Position numbers and translations under genes: made by a program. The notes below the pieces were generated by a model. The model was not told the origin of the DNA. It ran no database searches and worked only from the letters and a program-made list of their open reading frames with translations. A DNA stretch of 64,000 nucleotides, from assembly GCA_038046345.1 (NCBI GenBank), contig JBBSWJ010000005.1, forward strand, positions 24,784 to 88,783, in the 5' to 3' direction. Origin of the DNA: Nanobdellota archaeon (GTDB lineage Archaea; Nanobdellota; Nanobdellia; SCGC-AAA011-G17; JACPNG01). Below, one piece after another: positions 51,116 to 53,902 of the stretch (positions within the stretch are counted from its first letter, which is position 1; each line of letters starts with the position of its first letter).

Positions 51116-53902
51116 TTATAATTCTTTTATACCCTTTCTATCTTTTATTTGTTTTCTTATTTTATCTTGCAATGATTCAGGCAGCTTCTCATACATTTGG
51201 TCTACCACAAAATAGCTACCCCGGCCACCAGTAGCGGATCTTAAGTCGCTGCTTAATCCAAACATTTCACCAACAGGTAGCTTGCATTTAACGGTCATTT
51301 GTACTCCCTCTTGTTGCACTTCTAACAATTGCCCTCTTTTATTTTGTATTAATTTAGATACATCTCCTAAATAATCACTAGGCGCTCCAATATGTAATTC
51401 CTGTACTGGCTCATAAATATATGGTTTTCCTGTTAGTATAGCCTCTCTTATCCCCTCTCTTACAGCGGGGTATACCTGGGCTGGCCCACGATGTATTGCA
51501 TCTTCATGTAATTTCATATCAGTAACTCTTACTTTCATCTTCATTGTTGGTTCTTTTGCAAGTATTCCAGCATCGCAAACCTGTTCAAAACCATCTATTA
51601 CTAATTCTATTACTTCACCTATCTGAACTATACCACGAGTGTCATCAACTAATAAGTTTCCCTTGTATATATCCCTATATTTCTTCGCGTCTTTTAAGAT
51701 AACTCCTTTCTCTTCTAATTTTTTAAATGTATCAACATCCTTTTTTTTAAGCCTGCCATCAGGTATTTCTCCGTCCCTCATTAATTGATAAATCTCATCT
51801 TCTAAAGGTTCAACAATAAAAAAGAATTTATTATGTTTATTTGGGGATTTTCCTTCTTTTTCTTCAGATACCTTGGTTACCGCTTCTCTGTACACAACAA
51901 TAGGCGGGCTTGTCCTTACTTGCAAACCTTTTTCTGTTTTTATCCTATTCTCAATAACTTCTAAATGTAGTTCGCCCATTCCAGAAATTAAGTTTTCTCC
52001 TGTCTCCTCATTAATTTCGATTGTTATTGTTGGATCCTCTTTGTTTACTTGCTTTAGTACTTCAACAAGTTTTGGCAAGTCAGCAGGAGATGTTGCTTCA
52101 ATACTTTTTGTAACAACCGGGTCAAATATATGTTTTATTGCTTCAAACGGTTCCATTTCTTCAGATGCAATTGTCTCTCCAGCAAACACATTTTTTAACC
52201 CCACTAAACCTACAATATTACCAGCAACTGCTTTTTCAACGGTTACTCTTTGAGCTCCTTTGTATATCGATACCTGTTGTATTCTAATCTTTCTTTTTGC
52301 ATTGATCATATATGCATCATCGCCCTGTCTTACAGTTCCAGAGAATAATCTACCAGCCGTTACTTCTCCTGCATGTTTATCAATAACAATTTTTGTTGCT
52401 ACAAAAGCAGTCGGACCATTAGGATTACAGTTTACTAATGACTTTCCAATTTCAGAATCTAAATCTCCATGCCATATTTTTGGCACTCTGTATTTCTGAG
52501 CGTCTACAGGGTTTTTATGGTGTGCTATTACCATCTCGAGGACAACTTCATGCAATGGCGCTTTTTTTGCTATACCCTTCCATTCATCATTTTCATATGC
52601 TTTTATAACATCTTTAAAGCTCAGCCCATTTCTTAGCATATAAGGAGCAGATAACGCCCAATTATGAAATGCAGATCCAAATGCTACACTCCCATCTTTA
52701 ACATGAACTAACCATTTTTCTTTAAATTCTTCTGGGGCTACACTCTGTATGAACTTGTTTATCTCAGTTATTATTTTCACAAATCTTTCTTGCATTGCTT
52801 CAGGTGTTAGTTTTACTTCTTTTATTAAACGATCAACTTTGTTTATGAATAATACTGGCTTGACTCTTTCTCTTAACGCTTGACGCAACACGGTTTCTGT
52901 TTGAGGCATTATACCTTCTACTGCATCACATAATACTATTGCCCCGTCTACAGCTCTCATCGCTCTTGTTACATCTCCTCCAAAGTCTACATGCCCGGGC
53001 GTGTCAATTAGATTTATTAGAAAATCTTTTCCATTAATTACGTGAACCATAGATACATTTGCTGAATCAATTGTGATCCCGCGTTCTTGTTCATCTGCGT
53101 GGAAATCCAAAGCTAATTGTTTTCCAGCTAACTCTTGTGACATCATCCCGGCTCCTGCCAATAAATTATCTGAGAATGTTGTATTATGGATCACCATTCC
53201 CTCAGCAACAAAATTATGATTGTCTGCAACTGTAAAATCGTATACCATATCTTTCTGTGTTATCTCTTTTGAATTAACCTCACAGTACATAATATCTTCA
53301 CTTAATATTTTATTCTCTTGGATTAATATTTGTCCATTATTCTCTATTTTTTCTTTATAACCACTTAATGAGATTGATATTGCATCTTTTTGGTGCGGCC
53401 AACTTTTCATGCAAACTACAAGATCCTTCAATTCTAATTCTCTTGCTTCTTTATAACAAAAGTCACGTGCGAGCCTATCCAAAACTAAATAACGATGTTC
53501 TGGTGTTGTTTCAATTGAGCTGCCATTTTTTAATTTTATTTTTATTAGTTCACCGCCAGTTAATTTCCAAGCAAGGCTGATTAGTTTCTTTTCTATTTTC
53601 CCTGAATCTTTATTTAATGATAATACCTTAACACATTGGCTTGTAACATCATAAACAACATGACCATTCTTTTTTTCAAATAGTTTTCCATTTTTTATGA
53701 TCTTATCAAATAGCTTCTCTGCCTGTATAACTGAGCTATCACCTAAAATAATTCTAGACTCACCAGAAATACATTTCCCATGATATCGTTCTATGAAGGG
53801 TTAACTCGATAGAAAATCGATATGGGCGCATATAGCTATATTTCTGATTTGTTCCGGTTCATTCATTAATTTAACAACTTTTTCTGCTATCTTATCCGCC
53901 AT
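51116..53902 (-). CDS. fusA: translation elongation factor aEF-2, interrupted by a BHB intron (53783..53815) and an intein (53183..53773)
   Basis: N-extein [29 protein letters not shown][intron]HGK[intein][13 protein letters not shown] ... through to the C-terminal domains. The diphthamide-target motif HEDAIHRGPAQ is present. The track ORF (51116..53482) misses the N-terminus because of the in-frame TAA inside the intron. Confidence 0.85.
53183..53773 (-). other. mini-intein (197 aa) inserted in the aEF-2 P-loop between GHK and TT
   Basis: Starts with Cys (CISGESRIILGDS, block A), has TPEHRYLV (block B), ends VYDFTVADNHNFVAEGMVIHN, followed by the +1 Thr. No LAGLIDADG motifs. Confidence 0.8.
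53783..53815 (-). other. 33-nt bulge-helix-bulge (BHB) intron in the aEF-2 mRNA
   Basis: In-frame insert TTTCTATCGAGTTAACCCTTCATAGAACGATAT (contains TAA). Folds as h CCCAU/AUGGG, H AUCG/CGAU, two 3-nt bulges AU|U and AU|C, and h' UUCUAU/AUAGAA. Cutting after the second bulge nucleotide gives CAUAUCGAU-CAUGGG, which encodes HIDHG. Confidence 0.7.

What the first reader, a model, noticed from the sequence alone, without database searches (positions are those of the whole stretch)
53777..53826. Canonical BHB intron (33 nt, contains a stop codon) inside the aEF-2 P-loop coding sequence: likely endonuclease-spliced protein-coding mRNA intron
The minus-strand reading frame runs [29 protein letters not shown] - [FLSS*PFIERY] - HGK-C(intein). 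The bracketed 33 nt (53783..53815) splits the universally conserved GTPase P-loop AHIDHGK and carries TAA. The surrounding RNA folds exactly as hBHBh': h is CCCAU/AUGGG, an exon1-exon2 pairing. H is AUCG/CGAU. The 5' bulge is A-U|U. h' is UUCUAU/AUAGAA within the intron. The 3' bulge is A-U|C. Cutting after the second nucleotide of each bulge, which is the rule for the archaeal tRNA-splicing endonuclease, joins ...CAU AUC GAU | CAU GGG AAA, giving H I D H G K in frame. Spliced protein-coding mRNAs are known in archaea essentially only for cbf5 in Crenarchaeota. An intron in an essential translation factor, sitting 9 nt from an intein site, would be new. Unspliced message would yield a 33-residue peptide.
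Basis: seen in the sequence. Interest (0 to 1): 0.95.

Follow-up and report, generated by a model that had tools for sequence, protein, structure and literature searches.

The report
Spliced intron inside archaeal EF-2 gene
The essential translation factor EF-2 of this tiny (DPANN) archaeon is interrupted, inside the codons for its GTP-binding loop, by a 33-base insert. The insert folds into the structure that the tRNA-splicing enzyme cuts, and it belongs to a previously unreported family of such mRNA introns found in dozens of related genomes.

Summary
Window 53783..53815 (minus strand) is a 33-nt insert with an in-frame TAA. It splits AHID|HGK of aEF-2, 9 nt upstream of a 197-aa mini-intein. 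It forms a strict hBHBh' motif (h 5 bp, H 4 bp, h' 6 bp), and the endonuclease cutting rule restores AHIDHGK exactly.

The fold alone is weak evidence, because BHB-like motifs are common by chance in this AT-rich DNA. Comparison with relatives decides the matter.
- 9 of 80 related GTDB genomes and contigs from about 21 metagenome datasets carry 21-43-nt inserts in the same 16-nt stretch, at seven positions. That is 65 unique metagenome/GTDB sequences.
- Lengths show no multiple-of-3 bias.
- All 65 carry an in-frame stop.
- In all 25 cases with an unambiguous junction, BHB geometry predicts the frame-restoring junction.
- The helices covary, including pairs between synonymous exon codon positions and the intron.
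- A covariance model built without the window hits it at 49.7 bits (E 4e-14).

No transcript or protein data exist, so splicing itself is inferred. I found no prior report; only cbf5 is known. It is a new member of a known kind and of high interest.

The parts
53816..53902 (-). aEF-2 exon 1 (29 codons, [29 protein letters not shown]). Its last 11 nt supply the 5' strands of helices h (CCCAU, 53826..53822) and H (AUCG, 53821..53818) and the first two bases of the 5' bulge (AU, 53817..53816).
   Evidence: tblastn HSP q1-29 = 53902..53816
53783..53815 (-). 33-nt BHB intron. It comprises U (third base of the 5' bulge), h' UUCUAU/AUAGAA with a 14-nt apical part, H 3' strand CGAU, and AU of the 3' bulge. 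It contains the in-frame stop TAA at 53803..53801.
   Evidence: matched by family covariance model R1 over 53774..53828 at 49.7 bits, E 4.3e-14, all 15 pairs standard
53777..53826 (-). The complete hBHBh' motif (h 5 bp, H 4 bp, h' 6 bp, two 3-nt bulges), which is the span given in the finding.
   Evidence: own geometry script; RNAfold
53774..53782 (-). 9-nt coding segment CAU GGG AAA (His-Gly-Lys of the P-loop). It lies between the RNA intron and the protein intein, and its bases AUGGG form the 3' strand of helix h.
53183..53773 (-). Mini-intein, 197 aa. It begins with Cys1 (CISGES...), has block B TTPEH, ends ...VIHN and is followed by Thr+1. It is inserted at GK|TT of the P-loop. No homing-endonuclease domain was detected.
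   Evidence: translation; Pfam PF14890 Intein_splicing E 5.8e-22; boundaries from tblastn q33 = 53182
51116..53182 (-). aEF-2 C-extein ([12 protein letters not shown]... to KGIKEL plus stop): remainder of the GTPase domain, then domains II, III, IV and V.
   Evidence: Pfam GTP_EFTU, GTP_EFTU_D2, EFG_III, EFG_IV, EFG_C; 57-75% identity to Woesearchaeota/Nanoarchaeia EF-2

Best explanation
The 33 nt at 53783..53815 are a bulge-helix-bulge (BHB) intron in the pre-mRNA of the single, essential aEF-2 gene of a Woesearchaeota/Nanoarchaeia-like DPANN archaeon.

Proposed pathway:
1. The transcript folds so that exon 1 (CCCAU-AUCG) pairs with exon 2 (AUGGG) and with the 3' end of the intron (CGAU). An intron hairpin (h') stacks on the other side. 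This presents two 3-nt bulges separated by a 4-bp helix.
2. The archaeal RNA-splicing endonuclease (EndA) cuts after the second base of each bulge.
3. RtcB-type ligase joins GAU to CAU, and the intron is released, probably as a circle.
4. The spliced mRNA encodes ...AHIDHGK-[intein]-TTFSDN....
5. After translation the 197-aa mini-intein splices itself out and the P-loop AHIDHGKTT is completed. A working P-loop therefore needs RNA splicing followed by protein splicing.

Unspliced message terminates at the in-frame TAA after 33 residues, so no EF-2 with a damaged P-loop is made.

The element belongs to a family of 21-43-nt introns that occupy at least seven positions within a 16-nt stretch of the EF-2 P-loop coding sequence. 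One relative, L130, has a further intron in the G3 motif DTPGH|VDF.

Shown here: sequence, geometry, family conservation, covariation, exon codon co-adaptation, universal in-frame stops, and the presence of a tRNA BHB intron in the same genome.

Inferred: the identity of the enzymes, that splicing occurs and is efficient, and circularisation.
For: 1. Exact geometry and frame restoration in the window.

2. It is a genuine EF-2. All five EF-2 domains are present, and the gene lies upstream of EF-1alpha (46698..47978) and S10 (44880..45188). There is no second EF-2 in the 64 kb.

3. Family. 9 of 80 GTDB relatives have 30-38-nt inserts in the P-loop codons: L007, L017, L024, L025, L028, L037, L040, L043 and L056. 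A metagenome pattern scan gave 65 unique inserts whose removal restores RN....H[IV][DH]HGKTT.

4. Length mod 3 is 23/20/22, so the inserts are not translated.

5. 65 of 65 have an in-frame stop read from exon 1, against 44/65 and 20/65 in the other two frames. This holds across insertion phases 0, 1 and 2.

6. In the 25 sequences with an unambiguous junction, H has 3-4 of 4 pairs in 25/25 and h' is >=4 bp in 21/25 at the true register, and almost never at shifts of +/-1 to 3. The best BHB 3' site equals the frame-restoring site in 25/25.

7. Covariation. Cells paired are 85.8/79.3/77.8% in the three site classes, against 26-49% when the partners are slid. The covariation score is about 0.46 against <=0.16. 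0 of 500 shuffles reach the observed values. Compensatory exon-intron pairs in H are CG22/UA7, GC16/CG2 and UA8/CG2.

8. Exon codon co-adaptation. The Ala codon is GCC in 23/27 site-30 genes against 9/43 intron-less genes (Fisher 1.2e-7). It is GCG in 16/18 site-26 genes against 10/43 (2.5e-6).

9. Covariance model R1, built from 27 relatives without the window, hits the window at 49.7 bits, E 4.3e-14. The next hit scores 13 bits.

10. A tRNA-Ser(GGA) in the window has a 12-nt intron at position 37/38 in a BHB, so EndA and a ligase must be active.

11. An independent assembly is identical.

12. Literature. DPANN EndAs carry the L3 loop that is associated with increased tRNA gene disruption (PMC5829648).
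Against: - No RNA or protein evidence exists. A search of 5.8 billion proteins with the spliced N-terminus found nothing above 56% identity, so no assembled spliced transcript or intron-less near-identical allele is on record.
- EndA and RtcB genes were not identified in the window. Only 10 ORFs were scanned.
- The local fold is not significantly more stable than shuffles (z = -1.93). The MFE prefers a one-base-slid register that would give a 5-bp H and a frameshift, although the canonical register is only 0.2 kcal/mol worse.
- BHB-like motifs are frequent by chance in this AT-rich DNA.
- In the family, 16 of 30 site-30 members have an A.G mismatch at the H pair next to the 3' bulge. The outer helix h is poor in the site-26 and site-37 classes (48% and 58% paired). 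Many members are therefore relaxed HBh' motifs whose cleavage depends on a broad-specificity EndA.
- The junction was chosen among equivalent positions by best BHB score in 40 of 65 sequences, which is a small bias. controls for it.
Confidence: 0.88

Rival explanations
1. The gene is a pseudogene, or the 33 bp are an assembly or sequencing artefact, and nothing is removed.
For: An in-frame TAA interrupts an essential gene. MAG assemblies can contain errors. No transcript evidence is available.
Against: - The rest of the 917-codon frame, intein included, is intact, and the gene sits in the EF-2 / EF-1alpha / S10 context.
- A second assembly is identical.
- 65 further independent contigs from about 21 datasets and 9 MAGs carry analogous inserts that all restore the P-loop on removal, with covarying helices and co-adapted exon codons. 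Decay or error would not produce this.
Confidence: 0.02
2. Programmed translational bypassing, as in T4 gene 60 or mitochondrial 'byp' elements. The ribosome takes off at the Asp codon, skips the hairpin-containing 33 nt with its stop codon, and lands before CAU.
For: The size (about 30 nt), a stable hairpin and a stop codon shortly after the take-off point resemble gene 60 (own knowledge).
Against: - Bypassing needs matching take-off and landing codons. Only 1 of 65 family members has them, and the window does not: GAU against UAU.
- The conserved, covarying 4-bp helix between the exon and the 3' end of the insert, and the two symmetric 3-nt bulges, have no role in bypassing but are the defining EndA substrate.
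- Stops lie at variable distances of 0-21 nt.
Confidence: 0.03
3. The insert is removed from the RNA, but by enzymes other than EndA/RtcB, for example a different structure-specific RNase plus an ATP-dependent Rnl ligase.
For: Many family members are relaxed motifs with a weak outer helix or an A.G mismatch in H. The enzymes were not identified here. Archaea also have Rnl-type ligases (PMC9014305, listed).
Against: - The geometry is exactly that of EndA substrates: a 4-bp helix, 3-nt bulges, and cuts after bulge base 2 on both sides, 25 of 25.
- The same genome needs EndA for its tRNA-Ser intron.
- No other archaeal activity is known to excise such introns (PMC5829648; own knowledge).
Confidence: 0.05
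4. The insert is retained, and EF-2 is made as two pieces or from a downstream start.
For: Gene callers annotate a downstream ORF starting at TTG 53482. Split genes occur in Nanoarchaeota (own knowledge).
Against: Any downstream start lies inside the intein or after the P-loop and would lack AHID, and therefore GTP binding. No start codon follows the TAA before 53482. Inserts whose length is not a multiple of 3 still restore the frame exactly when removed in relatives.
Confidence: 0.02

Closest known systems
BHB intron of the cbf5 (pseudouridine synthase) pre-mRNA in Crenarchaeota (Watanabe 2002; Yoshinari 2006; Yokobori 2009, PMC2738675)
   Same: - A short protein-free intron (16-44 bp in cbf5, 21-43 nt here) inside a protein-coding gene.
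- BHB or relaxed-BHB fold at the exon-intron boundaries.
- It interrupts the codons of the catalytic site: the catalytic residue in cbf5, the P-loop here.
- Lengths are often not a multiple of 3.
- Patchy phylogenetic distribution suggests gain and loss.
   Different: - A different gene (translation GTPase EF-2) and a different superphylum (DPANN, not Desulfurococcales/Sulfolobales).
- Not one conserved site but at least seven positions in 16 nt, plus a G3-motif site.
- A universal in-frame stop (65/65).
- Co-occurrence with an intein 9 nt away.
- Splicing of cbf5 was shown experimentally; splicing here was not.
Archaeal pre-tRNA and pre-rRNA BHB introns (hBHBh' and relaxed HBh'/hBH motifs; Marck & Grosjean 2003)
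   Same: The same structural motif and the same predicted enzymes and cut positions. The window's own tRNA-Ser has one. The window's EF-2 motif is strict hBHBh', and relatives range to HBh'.
   Different: The host RNA is an mRNA. The exonic strands are constrained by codons, and synonymous positions co-adapt to the intron. There is no tRNA body to assist recognition.
Unconventional cytoplasmic splicing of HAC1/XBP1 mRNA (IRE1 endonuclease plus RtcB/Trl1 ligase) in eukaryotes
   Same: A spliceosome-independent, structure-guided endonuclease cut at two sites in an mRNA. In metazoans ligation is by an RtcB-type ligase. The XBP1 intron is short (26 nt), and its removal changes the reading frame and switches on production of the active protein (own knowledge; PMC13149111).
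   Different: The nuclease (IRE1, not EndA) and the motif (twin stem-loops, not BHB) differ. HAC1/XBP1 splicing is a regulated stress switch, and no regulation is shown here.
Inteins at the P-loop GK|T site of archaeal EF-2
   Same: A selfish intervening sequence in the same conserved motif that must be removed precisely for function. It is present in the window (197 aa) and in L008, L019, L020, L022, L037, L057, L075 and L171.
   Different: It is removed at the protein level by self-catalysis, is 197 to about 510 aa long, and is translated. The intron is removed at the RNA level by host enzymes.
Translational bypass element of phage T4 gene 60
   Same: An untranslated gap of about 30-50 nt containing a hairpin and an early stop codon.
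   Different: It requires matched take-off and landing codons, which is not met here (1/65), and it has no BHB.

Membership tests
Archaeal BHB intron (canonical hBHBh') | Two 3-nt bulges on opposite strands separated by a helix of exactly 4 bp | tested here: met
   AUCG/CGAU between bulges AU|U and AU|C. The canonical register is -14.0 kcal/mol against the MFE of -14.2.
Archaeal BHB intron (canonical hBHBh') | Flanking helices h (exon-exon) and h' (intron side) of at least 2 bp each | tested here: met
   h is CCCAU/AUGGG, 5 bp. h' is UUCUAU/AUAGAA, 6 bp. In relatives h is 85% paired in the site-30 class, but only 48% and 58% in site classes 26 and 37, which are relaxed HBh'.
Archaeal BHB intron (canonical hBHBh') | Cleavage after the second nucleotide of each bulge yields a functional mature RNA | tested here: met
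   The junction GAU|CAU restores AHIDHGK in frame. In 25 of 25 relatives with an unambiguous junction, the BHB-predicted junction is the frame-restoring one.
Archaeal BHB intron (canonical hBHBh') | Structure maintained by compensatory changes in homologues | tested here: met
   The count of structure pairs on A1-A3: covariation score 0.46 against <=0.16 for slid controls, and 0 of 500 shuffles.
Archaeal BHB intron (canonical hBHBh') | Cut by EndA and joined by RtcB in vivo or in vitro | not testable with these tools
   No transcript data. There is indirect support only: a tRNA-Ser with a 12-nt BHB intron in the same window.
Archaeal BHB intron (canonical hBHBh') | EndA and RtcB genes present in the genome | not tested
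   Only 10 of about 67 window ORFs were scanned against Pfam, and none was EndA or RtcB. The rest of the genome is not available.
EF-2 P-loop BHB intron family (defined here; model R1, site-30 class) | Full-length match to the covariance model built from 27 relatives, excluding the window | tested here: met
   49.7 bits, E 4.3e-14, model positions 1-53 of 53, no non-standard pair. The next window hit scores 13.2 bits.
EF-2 P-loop BHB intron family (defined here; model R1, site-30 class) | In-frame stop codon inside the intron | tested here: met
   TAA at 53803..53801. 65 of 65 in the family.
cbf5 pre-mRNA intron family (Crenarchaeota) | Located in the cbf5 gene at the catalytic-Asp codon; Desulfurococcales/Sulfolobales | tested here: not met
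   The host gene is aEF-2 (Pfam) of a DPANN archaeon. It is the same kind of element but not the same family.
Gene-60-type translational bypass element | Identical take-off and landing codons flanking the gap | tested here: not met
   Window: GAU against UAU. Family: 1 of 65.
Self-splicing group I / group II intron | Catalytic RNA core (hundreds of nt; Rfam models) | tested here: not met
   The insert is 33 nt, and there is no Rfam hit at this locus at gathering threshold.
Intein (adjacent element 53183..53773) | Cys/Ser1, block B TxxH, C-terminal HN followed by Cys/Ser/Thr; Hint-domain match | tested here: met
   C1, TTPEH...VIHN|T. PF14890 E 5.8e-22.

The most novel reading that the evidence does not exclude
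The EF-2 P-loop introns may be more than passive passengers. They may be a selected, possibly mobile, system. They cluster at at least seven positions within the 16 nt immediately upstream of the GK|T intein-homing site, are patchily distributed among relatives, share a hairpin core (stem-U-AAG-loop-CUU-stem), and always carry an in-frame stop.

Two readings are not excluded.
- (a) They immunise the allele against intein homing endonucleases by breaking the DNA recognition site while remaining harmless at RNA level.
- (b) They make EF-2 synthesis depend on EndA plus GTP-dependent RtcB ligation. That would be an archaeal counterpart of XBP1/HAC1 splicing, gating production of the translocase by the state of the RNA-splicing machinery or the GTP pool.

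A wider corollary is that endonuclease-spliced mRNA introns are a regular, overlooked feature of DPANN genomes. L130 already has a second intron, in the G3 motif.
Probability: 0.2. Interest if true: 0.93.

Novelty: new member of a known kind. Interest (0 to 1): 0.86.

Why it matters
Endonuclease-mediated splicing of protein-coding mRNA in archaea has so far rested on one gene, cbf5, in one group of Crenarchaeota. Papers from 2018 and 2025 still cite only those reports.

This is a second, much larger case with several unusual features.
- The host gene is an essential translation factor.
- The host lineage, DPANN, is unrelated to the cbf5 hosts.
- There are dozens of independent examples.
- The introns occupy several insertion sites.
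- Synonymous exon codons are measurably co-adapted to the intron.
- A stop codon is conserved in all three insertion phases.

Consequences:
- It gives a natural data set for studying how BHB introns are gained, move and are kept.
- It gives a concrete substrate set for DPANN splicing endonucleases with relaxed specificity.
- It is a plausible evolutionary parallel to RtcB-dependent XBP1/HAC1 splicing.
- In the window, a single 9-residue P-loop is assembled from three DNA segments by RNA splicing followed by protein splicing.
- Practically, EF-2 is a phylogenetic marker. Standard gene callers truncate these genes or call them frameshifted or pseudogenes, which affects MAG completeness estimates and trees.

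Tried and rejected
- ARAGORN found no tRNA in the window. Rfam found two.
- The fold-energy z-score was not significant.
- A genome-wide count of BHB-like motifs showed that the motif alone is uninformative.
- I scanned for other ORF-restoring BHB introns in the window and in all 172 loci. The results were dominated by weak chance motifs and gene boundaries. The reversed-sequence null (28 against 250) is not valid because reversal destroys ORFs. The only convincing extra case is the second intron of L130. No other interrupted gene was found in the window.
- tblastn split-HSP screens found no intron in 62 EF-1alpha genes, nor in the window's aIF2-gamma and aIF5B. The phenomenon therefore looks EF-2-specific in these data.
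- A search for a spliced transcript or an intron-less near-identical allele among 5.8 billion proteins gave a best identity of 56%.
- An exact look-up of the EF-1alpha product found nothing on record.
- Hits of the metagenome pattern with 17-18-nt or 29-38-nt 'inserts' at sites 10-21 are artefacts of a second AGAAAY upstream and were discarded. Seven hits were intein ends or unrelated sequence.
- Translational bypass, a target-site-duplication (transposon) origin, a translated insertion and self-splicing introns were considered and rejected. The non-palindromic H strands, GCAC/GUGC and AUUG/CAAU, are reverse complements of each other and not direct repeats.
- The anti-homing idea gets no support from co-occurrence. 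Among GTDB relatives, the intron is present in 1 of 7 intein-bearing loci against 8 of 73 intein-less loci, and the window itself has both elements. The numbers are too small to exclude the idea.
- Six literature searches found no report of an EF-2 or DPANN mRNA BHB intron.
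Full report
**1. What is in the window**

The window is low-GC (about 33%) archaeal DNA with a 16S-23S rRNA operon. Its EF-2 is 57-75% identical to that of Woesearchaeota, Pacearchaeota and Nanoarchaeia MAGs.

On the minus strand an ORF starts at ATG 53902 and reads [29 protein letters not shown]. 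It then reads FLSS-stop (TAA 53803..53801). After PFIERY it resumes in the same frame with HGK and an intein that begins with Cys. The frame stays open to 51116.

Removing 53783..53815 gives a 917-codon precursor. Pfam finds GTP_EFTU, domain 2, EFG_III, EFG_IV, EFG_C and an Intein_splicing domain in it. The intein is 197 aa (53773..53183: Cys1, TTPEH...VIHN|T). No endonuclease domain was detected.

EF-1alpha (46698..47978) and ribosomal protein S10 (44880..45188) lie downstream, as in archaeal str-type clusters. No second EF-2 is present in the 64 kb.

**2. The motif**

My geometry script evaluates H (4 pairs), h and h' for any pair of cut sites. At p=53816 and q=53783 it returns: cccau AUCG AU|U uucuau ...14 nt... 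auagaa CGAU AU|C auggg.

RNAfold gives the same fold as the MFE, but with U53822 pairing one base further along. That makes H 5 bp with a UCA bulge, at -14.2 kcal/mol. The canonical register costs -14.0 kcal/mol.

The fold is not special energetically: z = -1.93. BHB-like motifs are frequent in this AT-rich sequence. At h>=4, H=4 and h'>=4 there are 189 in the window, four of which are as good as this one and <=40 nt long. The structure alone therefore proves nothing. What is improbable is that such a motif sits at the one junction pair that recreates AHIDHGK, which by the window's own background rate is about 1e-6.

**3. Relatives**

A scan of one genome per GTDB species with the mature protein returned 80 EF-2 loci. 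Most encode an uninterrupted AHIDHGKTT.

Nine have short inserts in exactly this stretch:
- After the Asp codon: L024 (31 nt), L025 (32), L028 (31), L040 (30) and L037 (38 nt, together with an intein, like the window).
- After the AU of the Ile codon: L043 (33) and L056 (32).
- After the His codon: L017 (31).
- Inside the Lys codon: L007 (30).

L024 is a strict hBHBh' at the same site as the window but with a completely different h' sequence. Its length of 31 nt means the gene is out of frame unless the insert is removed.

TTxxDxLLxGxGM, with 17-47 extra bases between the anchors. After discarding artefacts, this gave 65 unique sequences in which deleting a block of 21-43 nt restores RN....H[IV][DH]HGKTT. 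The count includes the seven GTDB loci that the pattern also hits. The sequences come from about 21 different metagenome datasets.

Seven insertion positions occur within 16 nt. In spliced coordinates counted from the Arg codon of IRN, they are 23, 24, 26, 30, 35, 37 and 38. Three of them dominate: site 26 (18 sequences), site 30 (27, the window's class) and site 37 (13).

**4. Tests of the splicing hypothesis on the family**

- (a) Length mod 3 is 23/20/22, so the inserts are not translated.
- (b) All 65 contain a stop codon in the frame of exon 1, against 44/65 and 20/65 in the other two frames. This holds although the three main sites have different codon phases, and the position of the stop within the intron shifts accordingly.
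- (c) For the 25 sequences in which the frame-restoring junction is unique, BHB geometry at that junction gives H=4 in 13 and H=3 in 12, with h'>=4 bp in 21. At registers shifted by +/-1 to 3 nt the structure is essentially absent. With the 5' site fixed, the best-scoring 3' site is the frame-restoring one in 25 of 25. This test is free of the small bias introduced elsewhere by choosing among equivalent junction positions.
- (d) I made structure-anchored, gapless alignments of the three main classes and scored them with the named structure ((((([[[[...<<<<<<>>>>>>]]]]...))))). Cells paired were 85.8, 79.3 and 77.8%, against 26-49% when the 3' partners are slid. Covariation scores were about 0.46 against <=0.16. 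No shuffle out of 500 reached the observed values. In H, where the 5' strand is exon and the 3' strand is intron, there are compensatory pairs. AUC/AUU Ile codons pair with CGAN/CAAN (CG 22, UA 7). GCG/GCC Ala third positions pair with GUGC/GUGG (GC 16, CG 2). CAU/CAC pairs with CCAU/UCGU (UA 8, CG 2).
- (e) Exon synonymous sites are co-adapted. The Ala codon is GCC in 23/27 site-30 genes against 9/43 intron-less genes (Fisher 1.2e-7). There its C pairs with a G of the Gly codon in helix h. The Ala codon is GCG in 16/18 site-26 genes against 10/43 (2.5e-6). There its G opens helix H.
- (f) A covariance model built from 27 site-30 relatives without the window finds the window's element at 49.7 bits, E 4.3e-14. 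The match is full length and every pair is standard. Nothing else in the window scores above 13 bits.

**5. Rivals**

- Pseudogene or artefact is excluded by (a)-(f) and by an independent Logan assembly of run ERR3858114, which is identical over 5888 nt including the insert.
- Gene-60-like ribosomal bypassing would need matching take-off and landing codons. Only 1 of 65 has them.
- A transposon-like origin with target-site duplication does not fit, because the non-palindromic H strands are reverse complements and not direct repeats.
- Self-splicing introns are excluded by size and by the absence of any Rfam match.

**6. The machinery**

The window carries a tRNA-Ser(GGA) (43865..43960, minus strand) with a 12-nt intron at 37/38. 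It lies in a BHB with CUGG/CCAG as H and bulges AA|A and UA|A. The organism must therefore have EndA and a ligase.

Many family members outside the window's class have a weak outer helix, and half of the site-30 class has an A.G at the H pair next to the 3' bulge. These are relaxed HBh' motifs. According to PMC5829648, DPANN EndAs of several architectures carry an extra loop (L3) that goes with strongly disrupted tRNA genes. That is consistent with relaxed-motif cleavage but was not tested here. I did not find EndA or RtcB among the ten window ORFs I scanned.

**7. Specificity and spread**

Sixty-two EF-1alpha genes in the fetched loci, and the window's aIF2-gamma and aIF5B, all have intact P-loops even though they encode GHVDHGK.

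One relative, L130, has two introns in EF-2. One lies in the P-loop (CUCG CA|A ... CGGG CU|U). The other is a 31-nt intron in the G3 motif, DTPGH|VDF (CCAC GU|A AUCAAUUAGGUAAUUCCUUUUGAU GUGG AA|A).

Over residues 50-330, the nearest EF-2 relative of an intron-bearing gene is usually intron-less or carries the intron at another site. The distribution is therefore patchy, which suggests repeated gain, loss or transfer. This is only suggestive, because the region is highly conserved.

Introns at different sites share a hairpin plan: a 5-6-bp variable stem, then U, then AAG-loop-CUU.

**8. Comparison with what is known**

In the searchable literature, the only confirmed archaeal mRNA BHB intron is that of cbf5 in Desulfurococcales and Sulfolobales. 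It is 16-44 bp long and interrupts the catalytic-residue codon. Papers from 2018 and 2025 still cite only those reports. Six searches found nothing on EF-2 or on DPANN mRNA introns. Absence from this library is not proof of absence.

The element works like a tRNA or cbf5 BHB intron. It is not a member of the cbf5 intron family, because the gene and the lineage differ. I file it as a new member (in fact a new family) of a known kind.

Its closest functional analogy outside archaea is RtcB-dependent XBP1/HAC1 splicing.

**9. What remains open**

Splicing has not been observed. A search with the spliced N-terminus in 5.8 billion proteins found no near-identical product.

Why the introns concentrate in the 16 nt next to the intein-homing site is unexplained. 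Possible reasons are protection against homing endonucleases, easy spread by recombination through highly conserved flanks, and a regulatory gate on EF-2 synthesis. Co-occurrence counts are too small to discriminate: in the GTDB set, 1 of 7 intein-bearing loci has the intron against 8 of 73 intein-less loci, and the window has both elements.

The universal in-frame stop argues that ribosomes do meet unspliced message, and that making P-loop-damaged EF-2 is selected against.

Noticed in passing
L130 6748..6779 (and its P-loop intron near 6480..6520): One metagenome relative has two BHB introns in EF-2. One is in the P-loop (variant SHVHHGK). The other is a 31-nt intron in the G3/switch-II motif DTPGH|VDF, with H = CCAC/GUGG. 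Both lie in a His-(Ile/Val) codon context.
   Followed up: partly
window 43865..43960 (-): tRNA-Ser(GGA) with a long variable arm and a 12-nt intron at the canonical 37/38 position, in a BHB (H = CUGG/CCAG). ARAGORN missed it; Rfam found it at 46.4 bits.
   Followed up: yes
window 17492..17548 (-): A tRNA-Ala(UGC)-like element lies in the 16S-23S spacer. It is only 57 nt long, and the T arm is replaced by 3 nt (Rfam tRNA 36.1 bits). It could be a degenerate spacer tRNA or processing signal, or a disrupted tRNA gene. Unexplained.
   Followed up: no
window 53183..53773 (-) and loci L008, L019, L020, L022, L037, L057, L075, L171: An intein sits at the GK|TT site of EF-2. It is a 197-aa mini-intein in the window and L037, and about 510 aa (presumably with a homing endonuclease) in L022 and L171. 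The intron hot spot lies 1-16 nt upstream of this homing site, and site-37/38 introns split the Lys codon right next to it.
   Followed up: partly
window 48695..51049 (-): A 784-aa ORF with a signal-like N-terminus, a C-terminal transmembrane segment, very high Thr/Ser/Asn/Gly content and no Pfam match is inserted between EF-2 and EF-1alpha. It is probably a surface (S-layer-like or adhesin) protein.
   Followed up: no
window 28203..29921 (+), 31457..32695 (+), 46698..47978 (-): Three other translational GTPases (aIF5B-like, aIF2-gamma-like and EF-1alpha) lie in the same window. All have uninterrupted GHVDHGK P-loops. EF-1alpha is uninterrupted in all 62 related loci examined.
   Followed up: yes
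window 53482 (TTG) / L172 1..654: Automatic gene calling on this locus starts EF-2 at an internal TTG inside the intein. It drops the N-terminus and the P-loop, so such genes will look truncated or pseudogenised in MAG annotations and marker-gene sets.
   Followed up: partly
window 37344..37379 (+), 43499..43526 (-), 20304..20333 (-): Three other strict BHB-like motifs (h>=5, H=4, h'>=6, <=40 nt) are present. None restores or joins an ORF, so they are taken as chance occurrences in AT-rich DNA.
   Followed up: partly
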